A stretch of 64,000 nt of DNA from an uncultured Planctomycetales bacterium (GTDB lineage: Bacteria > Omnitrophota > Gorgyraeia > Zapsychrales > CAYRXT01): positions 12,592 to 76,591 of the forward strand of contig CAYRXT010000005.1 in assembly GCA_964428315.1 (NCBI GenBank), read 5' to 3'. Made by a program: the position numbers and the translations under genes. Below the pieces are notes generated by a model. The model had not been told where the DNA came from, did no database searches, and saw only the letters and a program-made list of their open reading frames with translations. Shown piece by piece: positions 20,679-54,160 of the stretch. Numbering within the stretch: position 1 is the stretch's first letter; each line of letters starts with the position of its first letter.

Positions 20679-20740
20679 ATGGTCAACCTGTTATGGGTCA
20701 ATCGCGCGGTCCCGGTTCTGTGCGCGGACGGACGTTTCTG

Positions 20741-22027: not shown

Positions 22028-22036
22028 AGGGCTTTC

Positions 22037-24451
22037 TCACATCCAGACTTTGACCTGATGCAGTCTGCCGTCGCCGAACGGCCGGATGAGGTTGCCTTCG
22101 ATTTCCTGGTCGTCCACCAGGATTTGAGACACCCCGCTTTCACGGCCCTTAGGATTAAGGATCTCGATCTGGTATATATCGCCGCGGAAGGGCCGCTGGA
22201 CGCTACATTTCTTCCATCCTTTGGGGATACAGGGATCGATCCTTAGTCCTTCGAAGTCCCGGCGCACCCCCAGGATCCATTCCGTCGCGGTCATGAAGCA
22301 CCACCCCGATGAACCCGTAATCCAGGTGAACGCGCCTTCACCGTAACGGTAGGGATTCTTCGGCCCGACAAGATATTCCGCAAGAACATAGGGTTCCGTT
22401 TTATAAAGATCCATATCCTTCTGGGCGTTCGGCATGATCTTTCTGACGGCCTCATAGGCCTTGTCCCCGCAGCCGCACATCGCGTAAGCGACGGCCATAA
22501 AAGTCGCCGCGTGGCAGAACACCGCGGCATTCTCCTTTGTCCCTTCGGAAAACATGCTGACGCGACCAAGCCGTCCGACCCATGAACTGTAAGCCGGGGC
22601 AAAAAGAGCGAGCCCGTGCGGACCGTTCAGATACCTTTCCACCGAACGGAAAAGTTTCTGTTTCCTCTCATCGCTGACAACGCCGGCCAGGATACCCCAC
22701 GCCTGTGCTGTCAGGAAGATCTTCCCTTCTTTGTCGTTCTTGCTGCCGTAAACCTGTCCCTTGTCATCGAAACCGCGGACATACCAGGAGCCGTCCCATC
22801 CCACCGCGTTGATCCGTTCGTCCATCGTCCTGGACATTTGGAGATACTCTTCTCTCTTGTCCTGCTGGCCGAGGAGGTCAAAGAGATCCGCCAGCATCTT
22901 CATGGAACGGACAAGGGCCTGGGCCAGCCAGATGCTTTCCCCTCGGTGCCTGATGCCGGCCGCGTCGATGGCATCGTTCCAGTCCGCGTGCCCGATCCGG
23001 GGCAGGCCCTTTTCTCCCACATCGTTAAAACAGTATAAAAGATTTTTCTCGAGATGCTCTATGAGGGTCCCCTCACCGTCCGTTTGAGATCCTCCGGTCC
23101 AATGAAGGTCGATCTCCCACCCGTCTTTCCATTTATCCTTCAGATAAGGGACATACTCCAACAGCAGGCTTTTATCTCCCGTTTCCTTGATATAGGCGCT
23201 GACTGTGGCCGTGAGCCAGACCTGGTGGTCTTTGTTCGGACGGTATTTGTGGGGCCCGGTGGTATCGGACCATCCCGGCGCGCTGGTCCCGTCGCGGCGA
23301 ATCAGTGACGCCAGCTTGAGAATCTTGGCGCGCGTCAGGTCGTGATTGATCGACACGATCGCTTCCGAATCCTGGCAGGAATCCCGGTATCCCCGTCCTC
23401 CCGATCCTTCGTGATAATAACTGGGAGACCGCGACCAGAAATTGCAGATATAGATCTGGTATTTGAGCCAAATATTGACAAGGACATTGAGATCTTTATC
23501 CGGCGTCTCCACCGTGACATTATCCAGGATCCTGTTCCGCCAGATCTGCTTCGTCCTGGCCAGTTCCTTTTCGGCCGTTCTGACATCCCTGTATTTGGCC
23601 AGGATCCTGGGGATCCTTGTGATCGCGTCAGACTGGCCGAGGACAACCGTGAATGTTTTCGTCTGGCCCGGTTTCAGCTTAACCCTGTGCCTGAAGGCCC
23701 CGATGCCGTCCTCCCCCGAACACAGCGACGTATTCCTGGCCCTGGTTTCTCCAATAGCCTGCGGATTCTCTTCCGTGTTATAAGGGCCGACAAATTCATT
23801 CTTCCGGGTGAAATGTCCCGATATCCCTAAAGACGGGGAAAAGAAAATCTGTCCGCGGAACGGCTGAATGTTCATCCCTTTCCATTCGGCGGTTTTTTTG
23901 GCAAAGATGGCCTTGTGTTTCTTGTCGAACCAGACGCGGTTGTAAAGGTTCATGATGTTGCGGTACCGCAATTCTTCATGGTAGTCGCCGATGAGGAATT
24001 CGACGTAAGGATAGACCTCCAGATTCCTGTCCCGACGGGACTTGTTTGTCATCTTGACGATCCAGACCTCACAGGGATCGTCCTCGGGCACAAAGTATGT
24101 CACCTGGGAGGCTATCCCGCTGTTAACGGATTCGATGTCGGTATAGCCTAGTCCGTGCCGGCATTCATAGAACGACGGTTTGACGCGCAACGGCTGGTAG
24201 GTCGCCGCCCAGGCCTTTTTCCCTTCACGCACAAAGAGGTATTTGCCGGGACGGTCAAAATGCCAGCATTCGGGAAGCCATCGGGTGATGCGGTGGCTGC
24301 GGCAGTCTTTATAAAAACTGTATCCCCCCGCGCACTGCGAGATGATCGAACAATATTCTTTGTTTGTGAGATAATTGATCCAGGGGCGGGGAGGCTTACA
24401 GGTCGATAGGATGAACTCGGTCCCATCCGAAGAAAAATGCCCGTATTTCAT
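22037..24451 (-). CDS. GH94-family glycoside phosphorylase (cellobiose/cellodextrin/chitobiose phosphorylase-like)
   Basis: 804 aa, cytoplasmic (no signal peptide). Contains GSGGRGYRDSCQDSE and IGHADWNDAID motifs and the (alpha/alpha)6 catalytic region typical of GH94. Substrate specificity not assignable. Confidence 0.8.
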   Translation of the reverse strand: MKYGHFSSDGTEFILSTCKPPRPWINYLTNKEYCSIISQCAGGYSFYKDCRSHRITRWLPECWHFDRPGKYLFVREGKKAWAATYQPLRVKPSFYECRHGLGYTDIESVNSGIASQVTYFVPEDDPCEVWIVKMTNKSRRDRNLEVYPYVEFLIGDYHEELRYRNIMNLYNRVWFDKKHKAIFAKKTAEWKGMNIQPFRGQIFFSPSLGISGHFTRKNEFVGPYNTEENPQAIGETRARNTSLCSGEDGIGAFRHRVKLKPGQTKTFTVVLGQSDAITRIPRILAKYRDVRTAEKELARTKQIWRNRILDNVTVETPDKDLNVLVNIWLKYQIYICNFWSRSPSYYHEGSGGRGYRDSCQDSEAIVSINHDLTRAKILKLASLIRRDGTSAPGWSDTTGPHKYRPNKDHQVWLTATVSAYIKETGDKSLLLEYVPYLKDKWKDGWEIDLHWTGGSQTDGEGTLIEHLEKNLLYCFNDVGEKGLPRIGHADWNDAIDAAGIRHRGESIWLAQALVRSMKMLADLFDLLGQQDKREEYLQMSRTMDERINAVGWDGSWYVRGFDDKGQVYGSKNDKEGKIFLTAQAWGILAGVVSDERKQKLFRSVERYLNGPHGLALFAPAYSSWVGRLGRVSMFSEGTKENAAVFCHAATFMAVAYAMCGCGDKAYEAVRKIMPNAQKDMDLYKTEPYVLAEYLVGPKNPYRYGEGAFTWITGSSGWCFMTATEWILGVRRDFEGLRIDPCIPKGWKKCSVQRPFRGDIYQIEILNPKGRESGVSQILVDDQEIEGNLIRPFGDGRLHQVKVWM

Positions 24452-40569: not shown

Positions 40570-41526
40570 CTAAAGGCTGTAACCGAGCTCCTGGAGGAGG
40601 GACAGACTGTCCCTCCAGTTCTTCTTCGATTTGACATGGAGGTCGAGGAATATCTTCTTATCCAGCAGCAGTTCCAATTCCTGTCGGGCCGCCTGGCCGG
40701 CCTTCTTCAGCATTTGGCCGTGCCTGCCGATGACGATCTCTTTTTGTGACGCACGCTCGACGAGAATGGCGGCCTGGATAAAAAGCACCTGCCTGCGCTT
40801 GGGAACAAGACTCTCTATGTGCACGGCCAGCGAATGAGGGATCTCCTGGCGCAGGGCCTCGAAGAGTTTTTCGCGGATGATGTCCGCGATGGCCAGCCGC
40901 TGGGGCCGGTCGGTCTTGGTTTCAACCGGATAAAGCATCGGCCCAGGCGGAAGCCGCTCAAAAAGACAGTCGACCAGCTTGTCGCAATGCAGACCCGTCT
41001 TGGCCGAAACCGGCAGCATCAGGAATCTGCGCGCATCGTGAAAGGCCTCGCCCAAGACCTCCTGCCAGCGCATAATATACCTGTCCATGTGCGCGTCGCC
41101 CTGGTCAACCTTGTTCAACGCGAGGATAATCGGGAGGCGGGACCGGCACACTTTTTCAACGACCATGTTCTCTTCCGGGCCGACGACGCGTGTCACATCG
41201 ACGACGTGAACCAGGCAGTCCGCGCCCTCTATGGCCTGGACGCTGGAGGAGTTCATGAATTTGTCCAGCTCATCCTTCTGGCGGTGCATTCCCGGCGTGT
41301 CCAAAAAGACAATCTGTCCGCGCTCTTCGGTATAGATGCCGCGGATCGCGTGGCGCGTGGTCTGCGGCGTGCGCGAGACGATGGCCACCTTCTGCCCGAC
41401 AATGCGGTTGAGAAGAGTCGATTTGCCGACATTCGGCCTGCCCACAATAGAGGCAAATCCGCAGCGTGTCGCCTCCTCTTTCTCCGGCGTAAACGACATT
41501 TTTTGTGCTCTTTTCTTCCCCGGCAT
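40570..41526 (-). CDS. era: GTPase Era
   Basis: GRPNVGKST (G1), DTPG (G3), NKVD (G4) and C-terminal KH domain; start at 41526 or 41499. Confidence 0.95.
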   Translation of the reverse strand: MPGKKRAQKMSFTPEKEEATRCGFASIVGRPNVGKSTLLNRIVGQKVAIVSRTPQTTRHAIRGIYTEERGQIVFLDTPGMHRQKDELDKFMNSSSVQAIEGADCLVHVVDVTRVVGPEENMVVEKVCRSRLPIILALNKVDQGDAHMDRYIMRWQEVLGEAFHDARRFLMLPVSAKTGLHCDKLVDCLFERLPPGPMLYPVETKTDRPQRLAIADIIREKLFEALRQEIPHSLAVHIESLVPKRRQVLFIQAAILVERASQKEIVIGRHGQMLKKAGQAARQELELLLDKKIFLDLHVKSKKNWRDSLSLLQELGYSL

Positions 41527-41529
41527 GAT

Positions 41530-42432
41530 TCAGACGGAAACGTATTGAACGAGTCTTTTCATCCTGTGGTCGATATCGGATCTGGTCAGTTTTGCGGTCC
41601 GGCTCATGCCGAACCCCTCGACGTTAAAGCAAGCGACCGTGGTGGCATACAAGACCGCCTTTTTCAATGCCTTCGGCGTGCACCGCCCCCCCGATGCCAG
41701 AAACCCCATCAACCCGCCGGCAAACGTATCGCCGGCGCCCGTGGGATCCACGACCTCTTCCACCGGATAGGCGGGGATGGAAAAAAGGATATCGTCGCCG
41801 TAAAAGATGACGCCGTGCTCTCCCTTTTTGATGACAATCAGTTCCGGCCCCATCCTGCGCAGCTTCTTGGCGGCCTTGATGAGATTGTCCTCGCCGGTGA
41901 GCATCCTGGATTCCATGTCGTTGGCGACAAAGAGATCGATCCTCTTCATCAGCCGCAACAGGGATTTCTTTTTATGCATGATCCACAGATTCATGGAGTC
42001 CAGGCCGATCAGTTTCGGCCTCTCCATGAGCTCCAACAGCCGTATCTGCACGTCAGGATCATAATTGGCCAGAAAGACATGCGGGATCTTCTTCTGGCGC
42101 GGCGTGAGTTTCGGCACGAACCCCATCAAGACGCCCAGCTCGGTCTTGATGGTCACGGCGACATTCATGTCCTCTTTCTTGTATTCTCCGTCCCACTGAA
42201 AGGTTTTTCCATCGGAAAGGACCAGGGCTTCCAGGTTGATATTCTTTTCCCTGAGGACCTTCAGGTGCCTTTTCGGGAAATCCTTTCCCACCACCGCCGA
42301 CAATTCCACTTGCGTGAAAAGGCGCGCGCTCATGGCGAAATGCGCCGCCGAACCGCCCAGCATGCATTTGCGGATGCCGGCCGGCGTTTTCACGTTGTCC
42401 AGGGCAACTGTTCCCAATACGATCAGACTCAT
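41530..42432 (-). CDS. PfkB-family carbohydrate/nucleoside kinase (ribokinase-like)
   Basis: GG motif (KCMLGGSAAHFA) and the C-terminal DPTGAGDTFAGG anion hole of PfkB kinases. Start MSLIVLG at 42432; the track start 42483 runs into a purine-rich leader. Confidence 0.8.
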   Translation of the reverse strand: MSLIVLGTVALDNVKTPAGIRKCMLGGSAAHFAMSARLFTQVELSAVVGKDFPKRHLKVLREKNINLEALVLSDGKTFQWDGEYKKEDMNVAVTIKTELGVLMGFVPKLTPRQKKIPHVFLANYDPDVQIRLLELMERPKLIGLDSMNLWIMHKKKSLLRLMKRIDLFVANDMESRMLTGEDNLIKAAKKLRRMGPELIVIKKGEHGVIFYGDDILFSIPAYPVEEVVDPTGAGDTFAGGLMGFLASGGRCTPKALKKAVLYATTVACFNVEGFGMSRTAKLTRSDIDHRMKRLVQYVSV

Positions 42433-42528
42433 GTTGGCTTTCCCTTCTGTTCGTGATGAACGACGAACCTCCTGATCGCCCATCGTCCTTTGCCTCTCGT
42501 CCTTCGTCCCTCGTTCCTTATCCCTCAG

Positions 42529-43023: not shown

Positions 43024-44772
43024 TCATTTTTCCGCATCTCTCCACTTTTTTTCCAAAGAACGCCGCGCATCGATGAAAACAGGGTGTCCCGGAAAGGCCT
43101 CAAGACTTCTGCGAAGCGCACCGCGGATTTTGTCCCTTTCCCCTGACAAGACGGCGCTTTGGAGATACCGTTCCAGCGTCGGTCTATCCGGCTCAATGAG
43201 CCCGAGAACGTCCTCATAGCATGCCGCGGCCCGGGCATGTTCTCCACGGCGGGCATAGGCCCAGCAGAGATCTTTGCGGGCGTTGACATAATCCGGCCGC
43301 AGGGCCAAGGCCTTCCTTAAAAGCGCGATAGTCTTGTCCGGGTCGTGAATATGCGAAACCGCCAGATCACGTAAATAGACGGGATGTTCCGGATCCAGAC
43401 GAAGACTTTTTTGAAAATGTTCCCTCGCCTCGGCGTAAAGGCCAAGACGCGCGTAACAGACGCCCAGACGGTGATGCGGCCTCGGATACGAGGGATAGTG
43501 CTCCGCCAGAAAGGAGGCCTGCGCGAACTCGTCTCTCCACAAACCAATCAAGGACAATGAAGAGACAAACACGACACTCACTAATCCCAGCCTGACGGTG
43601 TACCGCAGACCCTGCCGCGTCGTGAACATCTTTCTGGAAAAAACACTATCCTCAAGCCAGAGGACCAAAGCGGCCATCATCCCGGCGAGGGGTATATACA
43701 AGAAACGCCAGGCCATGGGATTGATCAAGGGAATGATATTGGACGCCGGGACAAGCCCCAGGGCAAACCACAGGAGAAAAAAGAGCCGCCTCCTGTCTTG
43801 TCGGAAACTCCGAAACAGGATCCACACGCTGGCCGCGCACACCGTTACCGATACAAGGTTTTGGAGATCCCATAGAGGAAGAACATCGGGCCGGAAAACC
43901 GCAGGCAGAGGTTTGACCATGACCGGGAACAGGACAGCCAGCACATAACCGGCCAGGATATCGACGACCGTGAGGACATGGACAAAGAGGCTGTTCTCAA
44001 AAAGCGTCAATCCCGAAAGGCTCTGGGCCGGGAAAACAACCGCATAAACAACGGCATAAAAGGAAAAGACGCACAGAAAGCCAAGGTAATCGGTCCTCAA
44101 CCTCCGCCGGAAAGGCGCGACGCCGCGATGGCCGGGAAAACAATGATCGCAGGCCGGAAGGAGCCCCAGGAGAACAACCGCCGTTTCTTTGCTGAACAGT
44201 GCCAGTCCAAACAGCGCCACCGAGAGCGCTGTCCTCCGGCGCACATAAGCCAAGAGCGAAGTCGCGACAAAGAAAAAAGCCGCGATATCCGACCGGAATC
44301 CGATATTCACCACGGCCTCAGTGCCCGCGGGATGCAGGGCAAACAGGAGCGCGCTGAAAAAGGCCGTCTCTTTCCGGGAAAGAAGGGCGAAGATCAAAAA
44401 ATAGAAAACGACCGCGTTGGCGAGGTGAAGTAGGATATTCGTCAGATGATAGCCGAAAGGCCGGCCCCGCCAGAGATAATAATCCCAGAAAAATGTCGCG
44501 CTGACAACCGGCCGGTAGGTGACCGACCCGGACCCCAGATCCCCGCGGCCTTTGAGAAAGGCCTCGTCGCTGACCGTAAAATAGCTCTCGTCGAACAGAC
44601 GGACAACATTCTCCGGACGGGAATAGAACGTGTTGTTGACGATGATCAGGTAATCGTCACCGACAAAGTCATGTCCCAGGCTGGGCGCATAGAGCGTGCC
44701 AGCCAGCAACACAATCATAAGGATGTTGCGCCAATGTCCCGCCGGCGTTTTAACTAACGGGCTAGAAGGCAT
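43024..44772 (-). CDS. Polytopic GT-C-fold (PMT/ArnT/TMTC-like) membrane protein with C-terminal TPR repeats
   Basis: N-terminal HDFVGDDYLII motif and ~10 TM helices like DUF1736/PMT_2 glycosyltransferases. C-terminal ~180 aa are TPR-like (HHRLGVCYARLGLYAEAREHFQKSLRLDPEHP...). Start chosen at the ATG at 44772, an 11-nt overlap with the upstream gene. Confidence 0.6.
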   Translation of the reverse strand: MPSSPLVKTPAGHWRNILMIVLLAGTLYAPSLGHDFVGDDYLIIVNNTFYSRPENVVRLFDESYFTVSDEAFLKGRGDLGSGSVTYRPVVSATFFWDYYLWRGRPFGYHLTNILLHLANAVVFYFLIFALLSRKETAFFSALLFALHPAGTEAVVNIGFRSDIAAFFFVATSLLAYVRRRTALSVALFGLALFSKETAVVLLGLLPACDHCFPGHRGVAPFRRRLRTDYLGFLCVFSFYAVVYAVVFPAQSLSGLTLFENSLFVHVLTVVDILAGYVLAVLFPVMVKPLPAVFRPDVLPLWDLQNLVSVTVCAASVWILFRSFRQDRRRLFFLLWFALGLVPASNIIPLINPMAWRFLYIPLAGMMAALVLWLEDSVFSRKMFTTRQGLRYTVRLGLVSVVFVSSLSLIGLWRDEFAQASFLAEHYPSYPRPHHRLGVCYARLGLYAEAREHFQKSLRLDPEHPVYLRDLAVSHIHDPDKTIALLRKALALRPDYVNARKDLCWAYARRGEHARAAACYEDVLGLIEPDRPTLERYLQSAVLSGERDKIRGALRRSLEAFPGHPVFIDARRSLEKKWRDAEK

Positions 44773-47566
44773 GGTTGACACCGAACCAGAAACGCGTGTC
44801 TTTTTTCGGGTCGCGGATCGCCTGCGCCGCGTCGACACGCACGATGATCTTCTCGAGAAAAGAACCCAGGGAGACGTGGAAGCGCAGCCCCACACCGGCG
44901 TCTTTTTTCAGGTCGGAATCGTTGAAGGCTTTGAACCAGTTGTGTCCCGCCTCGGCGAAGACGACCCCGTCCACGGCCTCGAAGCCTATAATGTTATCGA
45001 AAATCTTGACATCCATTCTGGGGATGATCGGGAACCGGTATTCCAGGCTCCCCAGCGCGATGTTCGCCCCCCGCAACGTCTTCCGGTCATAGCCCCTCAG
45101 CCCGTCCGGCCCGCCGAGTTCAAAGAGACTGCGGTCGTTGGGATAGCCTCCGGCGAATTTCAGGCGCAGGGCCGCCTGGGAATGAACCGTGACCGGCCGG
45201 TACAGGGACACATCGATCCCGCCGCGGTTGAAAGACTGCGTGGCGCCCAGGAAATGCCCTGAATGTTCAAAAAAGGTGCTCACGCGGTAACCCTGCGAGG
45301 GGTCGAGCACAGGTTCACTGCGGTCGAAAAACAGGGCCGCCCCTGCAACCGCTTCGTTTTTGCGCAGGTAGGAGATATTGCGGTCGTCCTCCGCAGGCTC
45401 GAGCACCGTCCCGCGGTTGATCTCACGGTTGCGGATTAGATAAAACGTGACATGATCGTTGATCTGGGAAAGGCCGTAGGCCATAGGCCACAGCTCCTTA
45501 CGTAAATATATTTTCCCTCCGACGAGATCCCGGTCCCCGTTCTCGAGATCGGTCGTGTTGAACAGTTCGAATCCCGCCGTGGCCAGCGTGTGAAAAACAT
45601 TCTTCACCTGATAACCCACCCGCGTCTTGTGCAGCTGCTCCCCGAACTCGTAGCCGGTCGCCGCATAAAAATTCTGGTCGAACGGTTTCTGCAAAGAGGC
45701 CTTCATCCCCAGCCCGTTCGCGATGATCTCCGGCCCGACGACAAGGTTATACGCGTCCTCGGGCAGGAAAAGCGACATGTCATACAGCGAAAGATAGAGC
45801 GGAACCGGCTCGACGTTCAGCCGGCGGGGCCAGTAATTGTTCGTCCGGTCGATATCCAAAAGGGCCTTTTGGGGATCGACGATCACCTCGCGAATCCGCC
45901 CTCCATCTCCGGCCAAAAGCACATCCCGCTCTTTGTCCCCGCCCCACACAAGGTCCTGGGTCCGGCCGTCTTCAAAGACGACGAGCACATCCGCATCCAC
46001 CGCGATACCGCCGCGGTTTTCCACATGGATCGCATTGTGTTCGACGGCGTTGACGGCATAGTCAAAATATTCGGCCGTCCTCAGCCACTGCCTGAAAAAC
46101 TCCCCCAGGTCCTTCCCACTCTCTTCTTCAGCGATGCGGACAAAGTCCTTCGTGCTGAGATTTCCGAAACGGTATTCCCGGAAGATCCTCCGGAACACAG
46201 CCCGGAAGGCCTCCTCCCCCACTGTATAACGCAGCATGGCCATAATCGCCGAACCTTTACCGTAGGTAATGGAAAAAATGCTGCTCGGCTCCTCGTAACT
46301 GGAGAGCTCGCTCTGCACCGGGTAATCCCAGTTGGTCCGGGCGATGATCTTATAGCGGTAGTCGCGCGCCTTGCGGAAAGAGGTATTGGGGAGGAGCCAG
46401 TCTATCCATTCCGGCCATTCGACGACCTCGGCGTTTTCGCCGTATTTGGCCTCAAGATACTGAAGGATAAAATAGGAATTCACCCCCTCCTCCAGCCACA
46501 TCTCGGAGAATTCATCCATGCCGACGAGATTATAAAACCACTGGTGGCCCGTCTCGTGCGCGATCAGAAAATCGAAATGCCGTTTCAGGATCCGCGGCTC
46601 GTCGAAAACGCGCGTATCCATAAAGACCATATTGGACATCTGTTCCCCGCCATAAGCCAGATGAACCGGTGCAATGCTGAACTGTTCATAGGGATATTCC
46701 CCGAACAGCTGTGTATAGAACTCCATCAAATCCCCGGCGCTGTCCAGGGCCATGGCGGCGTGCTCCTCGTCGCCGGGGAGATAATAACAGCGGAGCTCGG
46801 CCTCCGCTCTCCTGGTGCTCATGACCCGGTACCGCGGACTTAAGGCTAGGGTGAATTCCCTTACCGGGAGCCGCGTGGAGATCTTCAGGGTCTTCTTGCC
46901 CTCGCCGGTCGCACGCTCTTCGTCCAAGGTGCCCGTATGGATCACGCACATGTCTTCCGCCACCGTCAGCTCAACATCATAAATCGCGGCGTCGCTGAAG
47001 AACGGCCTATGGAAAGGATAGAACGGGGGATTGTTCCAGCCCCTTTCATCATGAACCGACAGAACGGGATACCAACGCGAGAGGGCAAATATGTCGTCAA
47101 TCCACCCGAAGCGGCCGTAGGAATGGGGTATCCGGAGGGTGAATCCCATGGACACGACGGCCTCCTCGCCTGGCATGAGAGGCTGTTCGAGGAGGACCTT
47201 CAATAAGGTGTCGTCCTCTCCCATTATCTCAAAGGCTCCCGGAATGTCGTTGACCCTGACATCGGAGAAGTGCATGTCCGGCACGGGGAAGCCGTCGGGA
47301 AAGGCATCAACATTAAAATAGCCTGCGTAGCGCATCATGAAGCTTTTTTCCTCATCGGAATACCGCCGGTTCGGATAGATATGGAAAAAGATTTCATGAA
47401 GGGGAGCCTCGCTCCTGTTTTGGTAGGTCACGCGCTGTTGGGCTGAGATTGTTTTTTCGTCCGTATCGACCGACGCCCGGATCTCGTACCGAGGCTGCGC
47501 GCCCGCCGCGGCCACCCATACCAGCGGGATCGCCAGCAAACCGATTCTCCAGAATATTTTTCTCAT
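44762..47566 (-). CDS. Secreted M1-family zinc aminopeptidase fused to a C-terminal Omp85/BamA-like outer-membrane beta-barrel
   Basis: Signal peptide MRKIFWRIGLLAIPLVWVAAAGA. HETGHQWF-x18-WLEEG gluzincin motif. The last ~330 aa are alternating amphipathic strands with GPDGLRGYD, GVGLRFHVSLGS and a terminal RFWFGVNHAF aromatic beta-signal. GGAGGTG SD upstream. Confidence 0.75.
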   Translation of the reverse strand: MRKIFWRIGLLAIPLVWVAAAGAQPRYEIRASVDTDEKTISAQQRVTYQNRSEAPLHEIFFHIYPNRRYSDEEKSFMMRYAGYFNVDAFPDGFPVPDMHFSDVRVNDIPGAFEIMGEDDTLLKVLLEQPLMPGEEAVVSMGFTLRIPHSYGRFGWIDDIFALSRWYPVLSVHDERGWNNPPFYPFHRPFFSDAAIYDVELTVAEDMCVIHTGTLDEERATGEGKKTLKISTRLPVREFTLALSPRYRVMSTRRAEAELRCYYLPGDEEHAAMALDSAGDLMEFYTQLFGEYPYEQFSIAPVHLAYGGEQMSNMVFMDTRVFDEPRILKRHFDFLIAHETGHQWFYNLVGMDEFSEMWLEEGVNSYFILQYLEAKYGENAEVVEWPEWIDWLLPNTSFRKARDYRYKIIARTNWDYPVQSELSSYEEPSSIFSITYGKGSAIMAMLRYTVGEEAFRAVFRRIFREYRFGNLSTKDFVRIAEEESGKDLGEFFRQWLRTAEYFDYAVNAVEHNAIHVENRGGIAVDADVLVVFEDGRTQDLVWGGDKERDVLLAGDGGRIREVIVDPQKALLDIDRTNNYWPRRLNVEPVPLYLSLYDMSLFLPEDAYNLVVGPEIIANGLGMKASLQKPFDQNFYAATGYEFGEQLHKTRVGYQVKNVFHTLATAGFELFNTTDLENGDRDLVGGKIYLRKELWPMAYGLSQINDHVTFYLIRNREINRGTVLEPAEDDRNISYLRKNEAVAGAALFFDRSEPVLDPSQGYRVSTFFEHSGHFLGATQSFNRGGIDVSLYRPVTVHSQAALRLKFAGGYPNDRSLFELGGPDGLRGYDRKTLRGANIALGSLEYRFPIIPRMDVKIFDNIIGFEAVDGVVFAEAGHNWFKAFNDSDLKKDAGVGLRFHVSLGSFLEKIIVRVDAAQAIRDPKKDTRFWFGVNHAF

Positions 47567-47597: not shown

Positions 47598-49595
47598 TCA
47601 TTCCTTCAGGCTCAATGGATTGAAATTCTCGATGGCCATCATCATGTACGCCGTCCCCGCCACCGAACCGGTCCGGTCGCCGTAAGGTGTTCGCCAGCCA
47701 TGACCGGTATCGGCGTATTCCAGAGTCGCGTAAGGCAAGCATCCTTCCCCCTGGCCCAGAGGCGAGGGGCTGGAAATGATCAGCTTGTTGAGCTCGTCCA
47801 GATAACGCGAGGCCTTCCGCCGGTAATACACCGCCTTCATATCGTTGCCTCCGGCGGAAAAATAGTCGGCGAGGATCTGGAAAGAGATTGCCATCTGCGA
47901 CGTCCATTCCGGTGAGACCATGCCGCCCCGCGGCATGTGCTTGTGCCTGGCGAAATCAAAACCCGTGACCTCGACCTCGACGCCGCTCGGACGGGGATAC
48001 ATCACCGTCACGCCGCAGTGTTCTTCGGCAAAATTCATGATCCGTTCGGGATCCATCCCCAACGATTCAAGCATCTCCGGACCCAGGGCCGCCAGAGACC
48101 AGGCGAAGGTATCGGTGGCGATGGTAGCATCACCCCGGCCCCTGTTTACCGGCGGCCTCCGGTAATCCCCGCTGTGTTTCACCATGGCGTAGGTCTTGAG
48201 CCAGCTTGCGGTCTTTCGGCGGGCCACATCGTATTTGTCCTTGTTCGTTAGCCGGTGGAGCATATCAAAGAAGGCGTAGGCGTCCAGGTTGTGCTCGGTG
48301 GCGAACCAGTCGAAATCGGGTCCACCGCGCAGTCCGCCGGCCGGGTCCTGGTCCTGGAGCGCAATCAGCCATCCGGCGATGGCTTCGGCCAGCGGAAGAT
48401 AAGAAGAATCCCCCGTTTTATGTTGATACTGCATAGCGGCGATGCCTGCCCATATGTTGGGACCGCAGTGGACGGTATACTCGGCGACTTCGCCGGAATC
48501 AAAGAAGTACGCGTTGTAAAAACCGGCATATCCTTGTGACATCATTCTCGAAAAGAAATTGAGGATCTTCTTCGCCCGCGGGACGTCTTCCGCCAGCAGA
48601 AAACAGTTGACGGCCAGGGCCTGATCGTAGATGAAGGCCCAGTCCTCGATGACGCCGACCTCTCCTTCAAAACTTTTCACGAGGCCCGTCGTCGAGCTCT
48701 GATGCCGGGCAAGCCACGCGTGCATCTGTTTCCAGACGGAATCTCTGAGGCCCTTTTTCTGTCGCTCGAGCATCTCCCTCTCGTCCTCCATCATCCTCTC
48801 CCGGCGCACCAGAAGATCATACTCGTCTTCCAAAGGCCCACGCCTTTCCTTCATTTCACGGAGTGTTTTTTTCAGGTCCATGATCGTTTTTTCCGACAGT
48901 TTCAACTCCCGGGCCATGGCGTCTTCCTGCTGTGTCCGCACGCGCAGGCCCTCCTGCGCCTCCTCAAGCCGGGCCGTCAAAGTCCGGATTTCGCGTGAAT
49001 ATTCGGCTATATCTTCCGCCAGCCTTGCTTTCCGGGATTCGATAGTCTCCAGGAGGCCGCCCAGGCGCGCCTCTTTCTGCTGAACCGTCACCAGGGCATC
49101 GACAAGCGCCGCGTTTCTTTCCTGCAGGCGCAGGTTATCCCTAAGACTGACAAGAAAAAGGGCAAAAAAGACACACACGGCCGCTGTCGCCAGGCGGGGG
49201 GCCCATACACTCCAGCGCGCATAACGGGTGAGCCGTTCCCGGTCAGATTCCGCTATTTCAACAAACCGCAGACCCGCCTGGAAATCAGCGGGAATGCGTT
49301 CCCCGGCCCGTTCCGTCCAGACCACCTCGCCCAAGGCCTCCACCGGAGGGCCGGACAAAGGAACGCGTATACGCAACCGGAGACGCGGCGGCCGGTTGTC
49401 CCGAGGCTTAAGCCAGTCCTCAAACTGATTGATGCCAAGACAAATGCCTCCGCGGCTGATATTGCAGGTGTAGCCCTGCTTCCAGACCGTTCCGTCCTCC
49501 TCCGGCGCCGCGCCGGGAGCGCGGTACTCCACGGGAAAGACGCTCTGCAAACGAATAAATTCTCTCTTATCGAGATGTAGAGTCTTTTTCTTCAT
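47598..49595 (-). CDS. PilZ domain - TM helix - long coiled coil - C-terminal ~340-aa globular (possibly alpha/alpha-toroid) domain protein
   Basis: N-terminal KREFIRLQSVFPV...YTCNISRGGICLGIN (PilZ), TM WAPRLATAAVCVFFALFLVSL, ~170 aa heptad E/R/L region, then an aromatic/Gly-rich domain (HCGPNIWAGIAAMQYQ...AEAIAGWLIALQDQDPAGGLRGG). Start at the ATG at 49595. Confidence 0.65.
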   Translation of the reverse strand: MKKKTLHLDKREFIRLQSVFPVEYRAPGAAPEEDGTVWKQGYTCNISRGGICLGINQFEDWLKPRDNRPPRLRLRIRVPLSGPPVEALGEVVWTERAGERIPADFQAGLRFVEIAESDRERLTRYARWSVWAPRLATAAVCVFFALFLVSLRDNLRLQERNAALVDALVTVQQKEARLGGLLETIESRKARLAEDIAEYSREIRTLTARLEEAQEGLRVRTQQEDAMARELKLSEKTIMDLKKTLREMKERRGPLEDEYDLLVRRERMMEDEREMLERQKKGLRDSVWKQMHAWLARHQSSTTGLVKSFEGEVGVIEDWAFIYDQALAVNCFLLAEDVPRAKKILNFFSRMMSQGYAGFYNAYFFDSGEVAEYTVHCGPNIWAGIAAMQYQHKTGDSSYLPLAEAIAGWLIALQDQDPAGGLRGGPDFDWFATEHNLDAYAFFDMLHRLTNKDKYDVARRKTASWLKTYAMVKHSGDYRRPPVNRGRGDATIATDTFAWSLAALGPEMLESLGMDPERIMNFAEEHCGVTVMYPRPSGVEVEVTGFDFARHKHMPRGGMVSPEWTSQMAISFQILADYFSAGGNDMKAVYYRRKASRYLDELNKLIISSPSPLGQGEGCLPYATLEYADTGHGWRTPYGDRTGSVAGTAYMMMAIENFNPLSLKE

Positions 49596-49607
49596 GGCTC
49601 CCAAGGT

Positions 49608-50723
49608 TTACTCGGTCCCGGCATGCTCCTCGGCCAGACGGATACGTCTGGCAACCGGGGGATGATCATAGAAAAGGATCACATCCAACCTGCGGGGATC
49701 CCATTCGGCCAGATTCCGTTCGGCCAGCTTTCGCATCATGGAAATGAAATCATCCGTCTTTCCCGTCAGGGTGATCGCGAAACGGTCGGCCCGGACCTCC
49801 AGGTGCCGGCTGAAGGCGTTCATTAGGGGAGTCAGGACCAGCCCGACGAGCGAAAAGGCCAGCAGGATCACCGGCAGAAACGCGATATCATCAAGTCGTT
49901 CAAAACCGAACCAGGGCAGAGCCGCGGAAAGGAAGAGGTGGACCAGAAAGAAACTCCCCGCCGCGGCCAGCGTCTGCGCGAGAGCCATCCAAACGATGTC
50001 ATGATGTTTATAATGGCTCATCTCATGCGCCACGACGGTCTCGATTTCCTCGCGGGTAAAACCTTTGACAAGCGTATCGCTCAGGACCACGCGCCGCGAA
50101 GAGCCCAGGCCGCAGATAAAGGCATTGGCCTTTGAGGATTTGCGCGAAAGGTCTATCGTATAGACATCCTTAAGAAGTACGCCGCAGCGGTCAAATAAAC
50201 GCGCGATCCGCCGGCGGAGCTCTTCATCTTCAACCGGTGTATACCTGAAAAAAAGCGGGACGATGACGCGTGGGGTGATGTGGGCCAGGAACAGCGAAAA
50301 CAACAGCCAGAAACCCGTCGCGGCCATCCACCATGTCCGAGGCCAGAGGCCGAGGAAAACACAGATGACGTGCGCGAGGGTAAAAAATACGAGAAATCCG
50401 ACAGCGGCCTTTTTCGCTTCGTCCCGACACCATGCCCAGAACGACTGCGCGGAAAGACCGAAACGGTGTTCCAGATAAAAGGTCCCGTACATGTTGAAGG
50501 GCAGATGAAGCAATAAAAGGAAGGTCCCGAAAAGGACAAGAAACAGCGAGCGCGCAAAAAACGCCCCTTCCGCCACACTCCATGACCATTCACGCAGTCC
50601 GGCGGACCACCCGGCAAAGGACCACACACACAGAGCCGCAAGGTCAAAGGTAAGCGAGAGGAAAAAAAGCCGCCTCTTGATCCAATGGTAATGTTTCGCT
50701 CTGCCGTGAGTTCCGTTATTCAC
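49608..50723 (-). CDS. M48-family (Ste24/HtpX-like) integral-membrane zinc metalloprotease
   Basis: HEMSHY (HExxH) after several TM helices; C-terminal helical region; GTG start. Confidence 0.85.
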   Translation of the reverse strand: MNNGTHGRAKHYHWIKRRLFFLSLTFDLAALCVWSFAGWSAGLREWSWSVAEGAFFARSLFLVLFGTFLLLLHLPFNMYGTFYLEHRFGLSAQSFWAWCRDEAKKAAVGFLVFFTLAHVICVFLGLWPRTWWMAATGFWLLFSLFLAHITPRVIVPLFFRYTPVEDEELRRRIARLFDRCGVLLKDVYTIDLSRKSSKANAFICGLGSSRRVVLSDTLVKGFTREEIETVVAHEMSHYKHHDIVWMALAQTLAAAGSFFLVHLFLSAALPWFGFERLDDIAFLPVILLAFSLVGLVLTPLMNAFSRHLEVRADRFAITLTGKTDDFISMMRKLAERNLAEWDPRRLDVILFYDHPPVARRIRLAEEHAGTE

Positions 50724-50733
50724 GTCCGTCTCG

Positions 50734-51126
50734 TCAGGGGTTGCGCCGGGATTTCAAATCCTCGATAAAGGTGAAGAAGCGGTCATCGTCCCTCAGGTTG
50801 TTGAGATCACCGTCATTCATGATATGATCAAGATCCCGGTATCCGCATTCCACGGCCGTCCGGAGCGACGCCAGGGCGTTTTCTATGTCGCCGGTGAGCG
50901 AATAACTGCAGGCCAGATTGTACAGAACAACGGGATCACGGGGCTTCAGCGCCAGGAGTTTCTGATCGACACAGAGCCCCTTATCGAAAAGTCCTCTCTT
51001 GGTATAAAGATCCCCTAGGGCCATCAGGGCTTCGATGAAGTCCGGCCGTTTGGCCAACACACCCTCATAAAAACAGATCTCATAGTCCAGGTCTTTAAAC
51101 GAAGGACGTCCCAATGAGCTCCCCAT
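50734..51126 (-). CDS. TPR-repeat protein
   Basis: Three TPR-like hairpins (ALMALGDLYTKRGLFDKGLCVDQKLLALKPRDPVVLYNLACSYSLTGDIENALASL). Confidence 0.6.
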   Translation of the reverse strand: MGSSLGRPSFKDLDYEICFYEGVLAKRPDFIEALMALGDLYTKRGLFDKGLCVDQKLLALKPRDPVVLYNLACSYSLTGDIENALASLRTAVECGYRDLDHIMNDGDLNNLRDDDRFFTFIEDLKSRRNP

Positions 51127-53095: not shown

Positions 53096-54160
53096 CTACC
53101 TGTGCCTCTTCAGGTCAATAAGGTCCTTGATCATGGCCATGTCCTTTTTCAGATCCTGAACCACCTGCCGGAGATCCCTGACCCTCTCCTTAAGATGGAC
53201 GTTGGTCTCTTCAAGCTCTTTGATCTGAAGGGTCAGGGCCTCCACGGGGAGCGGAACGGCCAGTTCGGTTTCTAGTCCGGCAATCGCCGTTTCCACCTGC
53301 CCGATCTCGCCCTCCAAGGCTTGCCTTTCTTCTTCCAGGCGATCCTTCTTCTCGCGCGCCTCCTCGAGCGGCCGCTCCTTACGTTCGACACCTCTCTGTA
53401 TCTCCTCCTTGAGCTTCTCAACTCTTCGGCTCAATCGCGCATTGTCTTTACGTACCCGGCTTATCTGTCTCGCGAGCTTTCGATTCTCGTTCTCCAGCTT
53501 TCTCAAATCCTCATCCGATAAAACCCCCTGCCGGATATCCGCAAGGAGGTCCTGTCCAGCCGCCGCCTGGACGGCATCCGTCTCCAGGATCCTGTTTTGA
53601 ATCTTCGCGATCTCTTCCTGCGTCTTTCCGAGAGCCTGTTGTTTTTCCGACAGCAACCGGCTATGCTGTTCCTCGAGAGCGGCATGCTTTTTTTCCAAGG
53701 TCTCCACCTGTGTGCTCAACGGCAGGAGTGTCTTTTTCTCGTGATCGACCTTATCGCGAAGCCGGCCGACCTCTTTCTCAAGGACTCTCCTTTTGAGTTT
53801 GAGTTCATGAACCGTCGCATTGTGCGTCTGCCGGGAATCCGGTTCGGGTGAAGACGGCAGCACGGGCTTCCTGATCTGCGGCATAAGAAGATCAATCTCC
53901 ATTTCAAGCGCAAGGACCTGCTGTCTCAAGCGGTTGTGCTCATCCGTCAGCCTCTCGTTCTCATTGACCAGCTGAAGGGCCAGCTCTCTCAGCTCTCTGA
54001 CATTCATCCGGAGGATATTGGCGACCCATTCCGAGGGAAGGGCGAATTCTTCCTGAACCTCTGCGCCTTCGGGTGAACCCGAAGGCGCGGTCTGCGCCGA
54101 AACGGCGGCGGAAAAACATAAAAACAGGCCGCACAGCGTGAGGATACGGTGTCTCTTCAT
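53096..54160 (-). CDS. Secreted coiled-coil protein (hypothetical)
   Basis: Signal peptide MKRHRILTLCGLFLCFSAAVSAQTA followed by ~300 aa of continuous E/K/R/L/Q heptad-like sequence. Confidence 0.55.
   Translation of the reverse strand: MKRHRILTLCGLFLCFSAAVSAQTAPSGSPEGAEVQEEFALPSEWVANILRMNVRELRELALQLVNENERLTDEHNRLRQQVLALEMEIDLLMPQIRKPVLPSSPEPDSRQTHNATVHELKLKRRVLEKEVGRLRDKVDHEKKTLLPLSTQVETLEKKHAALEEQHSRLLSEKQQALGKTQEEIAKIQNRILETDAVQAAAGQDLLADIRQGVLSDEDLRKLENENRKLARQISRVRKDNARLSRRVEKLKEEIQRGVERKERPLEEAREKKDRLEEERQALEGEIGQVETAIAGLETELAVPLPVEALTLQIKELEETNVHLKERVRDLRQVVQDLKKDMAMIKDLIDLKRHR

What the first reader, a model, noticed from the sequence alone, without database searches (positions are those of the whole stretch)
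44762..47566. M1 gluzincin aminopeptidase fused to an Omp85/BamA-like C-terminal beta-barrel
One 934-aa secreted polypeptide carries a complete M1 catalytic signature (HETGHQWF...WLEEG, Zn ligands H-E-x-x-H + E) in its first ~550 aa. Its last ~330 aa are a run of short alternating hydrophobic/polar strands with Omp85-like motifs (GLRGYD, GVGLRFHVSLGS) and a terminal F (RFWFGVNHAF), the canonical outer-membrane beta-signal. M1 peptidases are normally cytoplasmic, periplasmic or lipid-anchored. Omp85 barrels normally carry POTRA domains. A covalent peptidase-barrel fusion would tether a broad-specificity aminopeptidase to the outer membrane, or use the barrel to export or position it.
Basis: seen in the sequence. 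Interest (0 to 1): 0.75.

Follow-up and report, generated by a model that had tools for sequence, protein, structure and literature searches.

The report
Zinc peptidase fused to Omp85 barrel
One intact gene of an uncultured Omnitrophota bacterium joins an M1-type zinc peptidase to a BamA/TamA-like outer-membrane barrel with no POTRA domain; the fusion is real and conserved across the phylum, but it belongs to a wider, already catalogued and still uncharacterised class of peptidase–Omp85 proteins.

Summary
It has a Sec signal peptide, M1 peptidase domains I-III with invariant H337-E338-x-x-H341, E360 and Y435, a highly conserved 42-aa linker, and a 16-stranded Omp85 barrel. The barrel has the L6 LRG[Y/F] motif and a terminal Phe. 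No POTRA domain is present; the barrel sits where M1 domain IV normally is.

The gene is not an oddity. Full-length orthologues occur in at least 80 species-level genomes, almost all Omnitrophota, in conserved synteny. A full-length homologous sister family occurs in Planctomycetota.

The next-closest barrels belong to the Peptidase_MA_2 + PD40 + Omp85 proteins. These are the 'WD40-like' Omp85 subfamily of Heinz & Lithgow (2014), whose supplement already records M1-aminopeptidase structural hits. I found no functional study.

The exopeptidase motif is non-canonical (GGEQMSN instead of GxMEN), so 'aminopeptidase' is unproven.

Most likely this is an outer-membrane-anchored, periplasm-facing metallopeptidase, by Omp85 topology and the PlpD precedent. 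Surface export is the main rival. I rate it a new variant of a known kind, of moderate interest.

The parts
44762..47566 (-). Whole gene: 934-aa M1 peptidase-Omp85 barrel fusion (stop codon 44762-44764)
   Evidence: Intact ORF. An identical protein is on record, and full-length orthologues carry PF01433 + PF01103.
47501..47566 (-). Sec signal peptide, residues 1-22 (MRKIFWRIGLLAIPLVWVAAAG, cleavage after AGA, no lipobox)
   Evidence: Read directly from the sequence. Modelled as a low-confidence N-terminal helix. A hydrophobic segment at 3-24 is the only TM-like stretch.
46781..47491 (-). M1 domain I (N-terminal beta-sandwich), residues 26-262
   Evidence: All-beta in the AF2 model. Included in the ~570-column Foldseek alignments to ERAP1/IRAP/ERAP2.
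46082..46768 (-). M1 catalytic (thermolysin-like) domain II, residues 267-495
   Evidence: Pfam Peptidase_M1 at 273-494, 96 bits. PDB sequence hits to F3, PSA, APA and ERAP.
46631..46651 (-). Divergent exopeptidase motif G306-G-E308-Q309-M-S311-N312, in place of GxMEN
   Evidence: Aligns to 'GAGAMEN' of F3, with S311 at the canonical Glu position. E308 and Q309 are invariant and position 311 is S/A/G/P in 102 sequences. Relatives carry GGNE[S/A]S or GWNGNEC.
46487..46558 (-). Zinc-binding and catalytic motif H337-E338-x-x-H341-(18)-E360
   Evidence: Present in 120/120 relatives and invariant in 102/102 aligned sequences.
46262..46264 (-). Tyr435, the putative transition-state-stabilising tyrosine
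   Evidence: Invariant. Aligns with the Tyr of 'ISYGKG' in tricorn-interacting factor F3.
45878..46060 (-). Small all-beta domain (equivalent to M1 domain III), residues 503-563; not a POTRA
   Evidence: Six beta-strands and no helices in the AF2 model. Covered by Foldseek alignments to four-domain M1 enzymes. It is the least conserved folded part (0.48).
45752..45877 (-). Conserved linker, residues 564-605 (DP..LLDIDRTNN.WPR ... PLY..LYD...FLP.D)
   Evidence: Conservation 0.71, equal to the catalytic domain. pLDDT above 90 in the full model, but its first 18 residues fall below 50 when modelled without the peptidase. The motif is shared with the Planctomycetota-type family.
44765..45751 (-). 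16-stranded Omp85-type beta-barrel, residues 606-934
45065..45142 (-). Loop L6 (residues 809-834) with the Omp85 motif G822-L-R-G-Y826
   Evidence: L823, R824 and G825 are conserved in 100-101 of 102 sequences; position 826 is Y or F. Loop conservation is 0.81.
44945..44959 (-). Strand beta-13 'F-x-[D/E]-x-G' lid-lock motif (F870-A-E872-A-G874)
   Evidence: F870 and G874 are invariant; position 872 is Asp in at least 90% of the family and Glu in the window. The motif is as defined in PMC11358297.
44765..44794 (-). Strand beta-16 and the C-terminal beta-signal RFWFGVNHAF (terminal Phe; conserved Gly929)
   Evidence: F934 in 102/102, W927 in 101/102 and G929 in 99/102 sequences.
47598..49604 (-). 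Upstream neighbour: PilZ domain + one TM helix + ~500 aa of unknown function (31-bp gap to the fusion gene)
   Evidence: Pfam PilZ. TM prediction and gap sizes. Directly upstream in ~32/80 loci. Its link to the fusion is contextual only.
49608..50723 (-). Upstream neighbour: Ste24/HtpX-like M48 membrane metallopeptidase
   Evidence: Pfam Peptidase_M48 + Peptidase_M48_N. Multiple TM segments. Present in 21/80 loci at at least 40% query coverage.
50734..51126 (-). Upstream neighbour: small cytoplasmic TPR protein (no signal peptide)
   Evidence: Pfam TPR families. No signal peptide. It is the neighbour found in the most loci (49/80).
43024..44772 (-). Downstream neighbour: multi-pass membrane protein with C-terminal TPRs; its likely ATG at 44772 overlaps the 3' end of the fusion gene
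   Evidence: Pfam TPR at residues 465-576. About 8 TM-like segments and alternative start codons.

Best explanation
The gene encodes an outer-membrane-embedded zinc metallopeptidase.

Proposed pathway and anatomy.
- The barrel holds the N-terminal M1-type peptidase (domains I-III) rigidly against the barrel's periplasmic rim, through a highly conserved 42-residue linker.
- The barrel occupies the position that the helical domain IV has in classical M1 enzymes and that POTRA domains have in BamA/TamA.
- The enzyme is predicted to be catalytically competent: the Zn ligands, the catalytic Glu and the Tyr are all invariant.
- The divergent GxMEN motif and the missing domain IV cap suggest a more open active site and a specificity that need not be strict N-terminal trimming.

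Proposed role. The most likely role is processing or degradation of peptides or unfolded envelope proteins at the inner face of the outer membrane. The gene is a vertically inherited core envelope gene of Omnitrophota.

Shown versus inferred. Shown here: domain identity, intact catalytic residues, barrel type, absence of POTRA, conservation, synteny, and kinship to other peptidase-Omp85 fusions. Inferred: periplasmic orientation, activity and substrates.
For: Domains and model.
- Both domains pass curated thresholds.
- The AF2 model has pLDDT 90.7 and pTM 0.90, implying a fixed inter-domain arrangement.
- Domains I-III match ERAP1/IRAP/F3 over ~570 columns.
- The barrel matches only Omp85 members.

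Catalytic and barrel motifs.
- H337, E338, H341, E360 and Y435 are invariant in 102 sequences.
- The L6 LRG[Y/F] motif, the beta-13 F-x-D/E-x-G motif and the terminal Phe are conserved.

No POTRA. No POTRA family appears even at E <= 1, and the model contains no beta-alpha-alpha-beta-beta unit.

Orientation.
- In every solved Omp85 protein the N-terminus of beta-1 is periplasmic (established knowledge).
- Hanson et al. 2024 showed experimentally that the enzyme domain of the Omp85 fusion PlpD stays in the periplasm, and argued that a folded domain cannot pass a closed Omp85 barrel (PMC11116518).
- The linker is as conserved as the catalytic domain, and the long periplasmic turns T3 and T4 are conserved. 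Periplasmic turns average 0.68 against 0.59 for extracellular loops other than L6 (p = 0.03).

Core-gene status.
- At least 80 full-length orthologues occur at 38-57% identity in species-representative genomes.
- Gene order is conserved.
- A full-length homologous sister family exists in Planctomycetota.
Against: - No coordinates or PAE were available, so I could not see which barrel face the peptidase contacts. The conservation test is weak and vanishes when L6 is included.
- The canonical GxMEN Glu is replaced (S/A/G/P at position 311), so activity and specificity are uncertain.
- At least one distant relative (P0173) has lost HExxH, so catalysis is not indispensable to every member of the wider group.
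- No expression, proteomic or biochemical data exist for any member that I could find.
- The neighbouring genes are mostly housekeeping, so context does not specify a substrate.
Confidence: 0.6

Rival explanations
1. Self-exporting surface peptidase, in the style of a type V or 'type Vd' autotransporter. The Omp85 barrel translocates the N-terminal peptidase to the cell surface, tethered or released. There it would trim extracellular peptides for nutrition, or attack prey or host envelopes, in a phylum proposed to be host-dependent or predatory.
For: - The order N-terminal enzyme then C-terminal 16-strand Omp85 barrel is the architecture originally interpreted as type Vd secretion (PMC6555100; PMC4104836).
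- Surface-tethered aminopeptidase autotransporters exist, for example AaaA (type Va).
- The 42-residue linker is long enough to span a barrel (inference).
- Omnitrophota are proposed to be predatory or parasitic nanobacteria (PMC10066038).
Against: - The type Vd paradigm itself has been overturned for PlpD: its enzyme domain is periplasmic, and FplA was not detected on the surface (PMC11116518).
- The passenger here is a ~60-kDa, three-domain, zinc-dependent globular enzyme, unlike the slowly folding beta-helical passengers that are secreted.
- There is no POTRA domain.
- The lid-lock (L6 Arg with the beta-13 acidic residue) that closes Omp85 barrels is conserved.
- AF2 predicts a rigid, tightly packed two-body structure.
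Confidence: 0.2
2. A functional Omp85 machine rather than a passive anchor. The barrel keeps a BamA/TamA-like seam that binds the C-terminal beta-signals of unassembled outer-membrane proteins, or admits peptides through its lumen. It hands them to the fused peptidase, giving built-in quality control analogous to BepA acting at BAM, or a peptide gate.
For: - The barrel replaces exactly the M1 domain that normally caps the substrate chamber.
- BepA, a periplasmic zinc metallopeptidase, acts on stalled LptD at BAM (PMC8423444, listed).
- An M48 peptidase gene and TPR genes lie in the same conserved gene string.
Against: - There is no direct evidence of seam opening or substrate binding.
- The same barrel motifs occur in Omp85 members with no known insertase role, such as the noNterm paralogues.
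- The neighbouring M48 is a Ste24/HtpX-type inner-membrane enzyme, not BepA-like.
- The small TPR neighbour has no signal peptide.
- The geometry of the active site relative to the lumen could not be inspected.
Confidence: 0.15
3. Catalytically dead scaffold: the M1 module is a pseudo-enzyme used only as a periplasmic binding or structural domain of an Omp85 protein.
For: The GxMEN motif is non-canonical. One distant relative (P0173) lacks HExxH.
Against: H337, E338, H341, E360 and Y435 are invariant in 102/102 family members down to ~50% identity, and the motif is present in 120/120 listed relatives. The same residues are invariant in the Planctomycetota-type alignment. Such conservation is not expected of a pseudo-enzyme.
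Confidence: 0.04
4. Artefact: two adjacent genes (a peptidase and an Omp85 protein) joined by a sequencing or assembly frameshift.
For: None found.
Against: - A single uninterrupted ORF.
- The same architecture and length in hundreds of independent assemblies from NCBI, JGI, ENA and Logan.
- The junction (linker) is one of the most conserved segments.
Confidence: 0.01

Closest known systems
'WD40-like' Omp85 subfamily of Heinz & Lithgow 2014 (PMC4104836): Peptidase_MA_2 + PD40/TolB-like propeller + Omp85 barrel
   Same: - N-terminal HExxH (MA-clan) peptidase-like module, no POTRA, and a C-terminal Omp85 barrel.
- After the M1-barrel families themselves, these are the closest barrels found in 1.84 billion representatives: 15 of 21 further long hits have Peptidase_MA_2 + PD40, and 16 of 21 have Omp85.
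- Table S3 of the 2014 paper already lists M1 aminopeptidase templates (1z5h F3, 4kxd APA, 3qnf ERAP1) for their N-terminal parts.
- Also uncharacterised experimentally.
   Different: - The window protein has no PD40 propeller. It has a bona fide Pfam Peptidase_M1 domain with M1 domains I and III, and only a 42-residue linker to the barrel.
- The 2014 main text discusses only the propeller, by analogy to BamB/TolB, and never the peptidase.
- Homology of the peptidase halves could not be shown cleanly.
Planctomycetota (Gemmataceae) 'M1 family aminopeptidase' proteins of ~1000-1100 aa (P0187 family)
   Same: - Full-length homologues: 901 aligned columns, hhalign E = 8e-149.
- Same order (domains I-III, DP..LLD....NN.W linker motif, barrel), HExxH-E invariant, terminal Phe.
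   Different: - About 80-150 residues longer.
- Motif GWNGNEC instead of GGEQMSN.
- The barrel is often invisible to precomputed Pfam annotation.
- Only ~24% identical in the profile alignment.
- Different phylum.
PlpD / FplA patatin-like Omp85 proteins (the former 'type Vd autotransporters')
   Same: An enzyme domain fused N-terminally to a 16-stranded Omp85 barrel. The Omp85 scaffold is reused for a non-assembly function, and the enzyme is experimentally periplasmic in PlpD (PMC11116518). This is the best mechanistic analogue.
   Different: PlpD has a patatin phospholipase domain plus one POTRA domain and forms homodimers. The window protein has a zinc peptidase and no POTRA; its oligomeric state is unknown.
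BamA / TamA (Omp85 insertases)
   Same: - L6 (V/L)RG(Y/F) motif, beta-13 lid-lock motif and C-terminal aromatic residue.
- Profile hits to TamA (E = 5e-7) and to F. nucleatum BamA (E = 4.6e-11).
   Different: No POTRA domains. The BamA equivalog model scores 20 bits against a cut-off of 297. The N-terminal part is an enzyme.
Classical four-domain M1 aminopeptidases (PepN, ERAP1/2, IRAP, tricorn-interacting factor F3)
   Same: Domains I-III, the HExxH-18-E zinc site and the catalytic Tyr.
   Different: The helical domain IV, which caps the active-site chamber, is absent and replaced by a membrane barrel. The GxMEN motif is changed to GGEQMSN. The protein is secreted and membrane-embedded rather than soluble or anchored by a helix.
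AaaA of Pseudomonas aeruginosa (type Va autotransporter aminopeptidase)
   Same: An aminopeptidase covalently joined to an outer-membrane barrel (PMC6555100). It is a functional analogue for the 'surface peptidase' rival.
   Different: AaaA has a 12-stranded classical autotransporter barrel, belongs to a different peptidase family (my own knowledge: M28), and its passenger is surface-exposed. There is no sequence relationship.

Membership tests
Peptidase family M1 (Pfam PF01433; gluzincins) | Significant match to the family profile above the curated threshold | tested here: met
   96.1 bits against a gathering score of 27.7, covering profile positions 2-218 of 218.
Peptidase family M1 (Pfam PF01433; gluzincins) | HExxH-(18)-E zinc-binding and catalytic motif | tested here: met
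   H337-E-T-G-H341 ... E360; invariant in 102/102 sequences and present in 120/120 relatives.
Peptidase family M1 (Pfam PF01433; gluzincins) | Catalytic tyrosine C-terminal to the zinc site | tested here: met
   Y435 is invariant and aligned to the Tyr of 'ISYGKG' in F3.
Peptidase family M1 (Pfam PF01433; gluzincins) | GxMEN exopeptidase motif, whose Glu binds the substrate's free alpha-amino group; this defines aminopeptidase action | tested here: inconclusive
   The motif reads G-G-E308-Q309-M-S311-N. M and N align with the canonical motif, but the canonical Glu position is S/A/G/P, while an invariant Glu-Gln sits 3 and 2 residues earlier. Relatives have GGNE[S/A]S. Family membership stands, but 'aminopeptidase' activity is not established.
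Peptidase family M1 (Pfam PF01433; gluzincins) | Fold: N-terminal beta-sandwich + thermolysin-like catalytic domain (+ beta-sandwich domain III) | tested here: met
   Foldseek E ~ 1e-26, ~570 aligned columns to ERAP1, IRAP, ERAP2 and F3.
Classical four-domain M1 aminopeptidases (PepN/ERAP type) | C-terminal helical domain IV (ERAP1_C-like) capping the active site | tested here: not met
   No ERAP1_C hit. Residues 606-934 are a beta-barrel.
Omp85 superfamily (PF01103) | Profile match above the curated threshold | tested here: met
   50.3 bits against a gathering score of 24, E = 3.3e-13, residues 613-934. NCBIfam Omp85_fam E = 9e-13, although below its subfamily cut-off.
Omp85 superfamily (PF01103) | 16-stranded transmembrane beta-barrel | tested here: met
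   [not shown]
Omp85 superfamily (PF01103) | Loop 6 (V/I/L)RG(Y/F) motif and beta-13 F-x-D-x-G lid-lock | tested here: met
   L823-R824-G825-[Y/F]826 in at least 100 of 102 sequences. F870 and G874 are invariant; position 872 is Asp in at least 90% and Glu in the window.
Omp85 superfamily (PF01103) | [quoted passage not shown] | tested here: not met
   No PF07244 or PF08479 hit even at E <= 1. The region between the catalytic domain and the barrel is an all-beta domain plus a 42-aa linker. POTRA-less classes (noNterm, WD40-like, Metallo) are nevertheless accepted in the 2014 classification. I therefore file this protein as a POTRA-less member of the superfamily, not as BamA or TamA.
BamA (TIGR03303 equivalog) | Equivalog-level profile score and five POTRA domains | tested here: not met
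   20.2 bits against a cut-off of 297; no POTRA.
Type Vd autotransporters / patatin-like Omp85 (PlpD, FplA) | Patatin-like lipase passenger + a single POTRA + a 16-strand barrel | tested here: not met
   No patatin or POTRA hit; only the barrel is shared.
WD40-like Omp85 subfamily (Heinz & Lithgow 2014) | PD40/TolB-like beta-propeller between the N-terminal module and the barrel | tested here: not met
   No PD40 or DPPIV_N hit in the window protein. The model shows no propeller.
WD40-like Omp85 subfamily (Heinz & Lithgow 2014) | Barrel sequence closest to that subfamily; N-terminal MA-clan peptidase-like module | tested here: met
   After the M1-barrel families, barrel-profile hits are predominantly Peptidase_MA_2 + PD40 + Omp85 proteins. 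M1-type templates are recorded for that subfamily in Table S3.
Outer-membrane proteins assembled by BAM | C-terminal beta-signal ending in an aromatic residue | tested here: met
   Terminal F934 in 102/102 and W927 in 101/102 sequences. Actual BAM dependence is not testable here.

The most novel reading that the evidence does not exclude
The Omp85 barrel is not just an anchor. It has taken over the role of M1 domain IV as the lid of the catalytic chamber, so that the barrel lumen or its beta-1/beta-16 seam feeds substrates directly into the active site. Those substrates would be C-terminal beta-signals of unassembled outer-membrane proteins, or peptides entering from outside. That would make this a self-contained outer-membrane 'capture-and-cleave' machine, and a new functional class of Omp85 protein conserved across Omnitrophota and Planctomycetota.
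Probability: 0.15. Interest if true: 0.8.

Novelty: new variant of a known kind. Interest (0 to 1): 0.5.

Why it matters
Omp85 proteins are usually thought of as POTRA-bearing assembly or translocation machines. Recent work on PlpD shows that the scaffold has been reused for other jobs.

This family is a clean, phylum-wide second example. A predicted-active zinc peptidase is welded directly to the barrel with no POTRA, is conserved in synteny in Omnitrophota, and has a sister family in Planctomycetota.

It gives experimentalists a defined target for two questions:
- What do enzyme-Omp85 fusions do at the inner face of the outer membrane?
- Is the barrel an anchor, or a working partner of the enzyme?

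It also flags an annotation problem. The same protein is named either 'M1 family aminopeptidase' or 'BamA/TamA family outer membrane protein', and in Planctomycetota the barrel is mostly missed.

Tried and rejected
1. + strand translation of the given coordinates gives only stops; the gene is on the minus strand.
2. AFDB50 fold search for fusion-like structures: the library was unavailable.
3. Word-indexed search with the barrel profile returned only 15 fragments of the same family and no outside relatives. The exhaustive representative search was needed instead.
This was solved with alignment A4.
5. Hydrophobic-alternation test for a membrane barrel: not discriminating, because the soluble domain I strands alternate more strongly (2.9 against 2.3).
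6. Loop-versus-turn conservation as a proxy for orientation: only weak (p = 0.03 without L6, not significant with L6).
7. Promoter and terminator scan: no informative sites in the intergenic gaps.
8. Search for a second Omp85 or BamA gene in the window and in 0.99 Mb of related loci: none found. These are local neighbourhoods only, so this says nothing about the rest of the genomes.
9. hhalign of the family against the WD40-like set was confounded by an M1-type first row, and the two HExxH motifs were not aligned. Common origin of the peptidase halves is left open.
10. TPR130 as a BamD-like lipoprotein partner: rejected, because it has no signal peptide or lipobox.
11. The neighbouring M48 as a BepA-like partner: rejected as such, because it is Ste24/HtpX-type with N-terminal TM helices.
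12. Literature searches for a characterised M1-Omp85 protein found none. A first text search for 'peptidase' in Heinz & Lithgow missed 'aminopeptidase' because of word-start matching (corrected).
Full report
**Observation.** The coordinates 44762-47566 hold one uninterrupted ORF of 934 codons, on the minus strand. The plus-strand reading is full of stops. A GGAGG Shine-Dalgarno sequence precedes the ATG. The protein begins with a typical Sec signal peptide (MRKIFWRIGLLAIPLVWVAAAG|AQ) that has no lipobox cysteine. Pfam places Peptidase_M1 at residues 273-494 (96.1 bits, cut-off 27.7) and Omp85 at residues 613-934 (50.3 bits, cut-off 24). No other family apart from a sub-threshold DUF1570 hit, and in particular no POTRA family, appears even at E <= 1. 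NCBIfam agrees, with Omp85_fam and sub-threshold BamA and PepN hits. An identical protein is on record, and the 119 next-best database relatives, all but one about 910-1090 aa, carry both domains. The fusion is therefore not a frameshift or assembly artefact.

**Anatomy.** An AlphaFold2 model built on 102 orthologues is confident (mean pLDDT 90.7, pTM 0.90). It contains:
- a beta-sandwich at residues 26-262;
- a mixed alpha/beta catalytic domain at 267-495;
- a small six-stranded all-beta domain at 503-563;
- a 42-residue linker at 564-605;
- sixteen long beta-strands at 606-930.

Foldseek aligns about 570 residues to ERAP1, IRAP, ERAP2 and tricorn-interacting factor F3 (E ~ 1e-26). This corresponds to M1 domains I, II and III. 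What is missing is the helical domain IV that caps the active-site chamber in classical M1 aminopeptidases, and the barrel sits in its place.

The Omp85 hallmarks are conserved (motif definitions from PMC11358297):
- loop 6 L-R-G-[Y/F], in at least 100 of 102 sequences;
- the beta-13 F-x-[D/E]-x-G lid-lock;
- a Gly in beta-16;
- an invariant terminal Phe.

The segment between the catalytic domain and the barrel has no beta-alpha-alpha-beta-beta unit, so POTRA is truly absent.

**Active site.** H337, E338, H341, E360 and Y435 are invariant in the 102-sequence alignment, and HExxH-18-E is present in all 120 listed relatives. Y435 aligns with the catalytic Tyr of F3. The exopeptidase motif is not canonical. 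G-G-E308-Q309-M-S311-N aligns with 'GAGAMEN' of F3, which puts Ser (Ser, Ala, Gly or Pro across the family) where the amino-group-binding Glu normally lies, while Glu308 and Gln309 are invariant. More distant fusion relatives have GGNE[S/A]S or GWNGNEC. The enzyme is therefore very probably an active zinc peptidase, but calling it a broad-specificity aminopeptidase goes beyond the evidence.

**Distribution and context.**
- A scan of one genome per species found 104 relatives. The 80 loci retained show matches at 38-57% identity, full-length except where a contig end cuts them.
- Nearly all are labelled Candidatus Omnitrophota, including Ca. Gygaella. Several are labelled 'uncultured Planctomycetales' and one 'Deltaproteobacteria', yet they share the same gene order.
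- Gene order is strikingly conserved and co-directional: TrpE - class IV aminotransferase - AsnC regulator - class I/II aminotransferase - small TPR protein - (M48 peptidase) - (PilZ-TM protein) - (HhH-GPD glycosylase) - fusion gene - (TM + TPR protein) - UPF0047.
- In the window the gaps are 3-31 bp, and the downstream gene overlaps the 3' end of the fusion gene.
- This indicates a vertically inherited core gene, probably co-transcribed with envelope-related neighbours. Most neighbours are housekeeping genes and do not reveal a substrate.
- The small TPR protein has no signal peptide, so it is not BamD-like. The M48 enzyme has Ste24/HtpX-type membrane helices, so it is not BepA-like.

**Wider kinship.**
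- An exhaustive HMMER search of 1.84 billion representatives with the linker-plus-barrel profile gave 2542 hits at E <= 1e-3, 304 at E <= 1e-10 and 39 at E <= 1e-30.
- All ten sampled proteins with full-length barrel matches carry Peptidase_M1.
- Most sampled partial-barrel hits of 850-1075 aa are also Peptidase_M1 + Omp85.
- One such cluster is named 'M1 family aminopeptidase [Planctomycetota / Gemmataceae]'. A search with that group found at least 397 clusters of ~1000-1100 aa. They are homologous to the window family over 901 columns (hhalign E = 8e-149), including the DP..LLD....NN.W linker motif.
- Further out, 15 of 21 long barrel relatives carry Peptidase_MA_2 + PD40 propeller repeats, and 16 of 21 carry Omp85.

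**What was already known.** That last architecture is the 'WD40-like' Omp85 subfamily of Heinz & Lithgow (2014). Their Table S3 already lists M1 aminopeptidase templates (1z5h, 4kxd, 3qnf) for those proteins, although the main text discusses only the propeller. A 2024 paper mentions 'WD40 and peptidase domains' in passing. I found no paper that describes the propeller-less M1-Omp85 form or tests any member.

**Mechanism.** The N-terminus of strand beta-1 of every solved Omp85 protein lies in the periplasm (established knowledge). By default, then, the peptidase hangs on the periplasmic face, where POTRA domains normally sit. The closest mechanistic precedent is PlpD. It was long assumed to export its N-terminal patatin domain ('type Vd'), but Hanson et al. 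(2024) showed that the enzyme domain is exclusively periplasmic. They argued that a folded domain cannot cross a closed Omp85 barrel, and proposed that the Omp85 scaffold was reused for new functions (PMC11116518).

Several observations fit a rigid periplasmic assembly:
- the high pTM of the full model;
- the fact that the first 18 linker residues are confident only when the peptidase is present;
- a linker as conserved as the catalytic domain (0.71 against 0.70);
- long, conserved periplasmic turns T3 and T4.

The statistical support for orientation is nevertheless weak (p = 0.03, lost when L6 is included). I could not inspect coordinates.

I therefore favour an outer-membrane-anchored, periplasm-facing metallopeptidase (about 0.6). 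The alternatives are:
- surface export (about 0.2);
- a version in which the barrel actively captures substrates for the peptidase (about 0.15), an alternative in its own right since it shares the periplasmic orientation of the favoured model;
- a pseudo-enzyme (about 0.04) or an artefact (about 0.01), both effectively excluded.

**Verdict.** It is not unique: it is the Omnitrophota branch of a broad, old and essentially unstudied group of gluzincin-Omp85 fusions whose existence was recorded in 2014. The new elements are:
- the direct M1-to-barrel junction, without POTRA or propeller;
- phylum-wide conservation and synteny;
- the sister family in Planctomycetota;
- the altered GxMEN motif.

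I rate it a new variant of a known kind, with interest 0.5.

**Dead ends.** These are listed under 'tried and rejected': the unavailable AFDB library, the uninformative word-indexed barrel search, the non-discriminating hydrophobic alternation test, the promoter and terminator scan, and the confounded profile comparison with the WD40-like set.

Noticed in passing
P0046 (orthologue, 1088 aa); compare window 50734-51126 (-): One orthologue carries an N-terminal TPR extension whose sequence matches the small TPR protein encoded just upstream of the fusion gene in the window and in 49/80 loci. This is either a true three-part fusion or a read-through or annotation merge of adjacent genes.
   Followed up: partly
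window 47598-49604 (-): A 668-aa protein with an N-terminal PilZ (c-di-GMP-binding) domain, one TM helix and ~500 residues without any Pfam match. It sits directly upstream of the fusion gene (31-bp gap) and is conserved there in ~32/80 loci.
   Followed up: partly
window 49608-50723 (-) and 50734-51126 (-): A Ste24/HtpX-like M48 membrane metallopeptidase and a small cytoplasmic TPR protein form a conserved pair upstream, with gaps of 3-10 bp. This is a second zinc peptidase in the same co-directional gene string.
   Followed up: partly
window 43024-44895 (-): A multi-pass (~8 TM) membrane protein with C-terminal TPRs. The longest ORF overlaps the fusion gene by 134 nt, but the likely ATG at 44772 overlaps by only 11 nt, which suggests translational coupling.
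   Followed up: partly
window 40819-42456 (+): A 545-aa ORF runs antisense to the Era GTPase (40570-41526) and PfkB kinase (41530-42483) genes. It is almost certainly a spurious long ORF in 56% G+C DNA, and it fooled my greedy gene picker.
   Followed up: partly
loci L001, L004-L006, L009, L010, L012, L013 and others; L072: Many syntenic loci come from MAGs labelled 'uncultured Planctomycetales/Planctomycetia bacterium' and one from a 'Deltaproteobacteria bacterium', yet they share the Omnitrophota gene order and 40-57% identity. The taxonomic labels look like placeholders or mis-binning.
   Followed up: no
P0173 (983 aa, distant relative): This M1-barrel relative has no HExxH motif at all, so it may be a pseudo-peptidase member of the wider group.
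   Followed up: no
P0300-P0415 (Planctomycetota-type family): In most members of the sister family the precomputed Pfam annotation lists only PF01433. The C-terminal Omp85 barrel is missed by Pfam, so these proteins are annotated simply as M1 aminopeptidases.
   Followed up: partly
window 53096-54160 (-): A 354-aa protein with only weak coiled-coil-type Pfam hits has no counterpart in any of the 80 otherwise syntenic loci. It looks like a lineage-specific insertion between the AsnC regulator and the class IV aminotransferase genes.
   Followed up: no
window 16335-24451 (-): A sugar-utilisation cluster: a GH94 phosphorylase (22037-24451), an extracellular solute-binding protein (20741-22027), and an 809-aa protein combining TPR and a GH2-type TIM barrel (16335-18764).
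   Followed up: no
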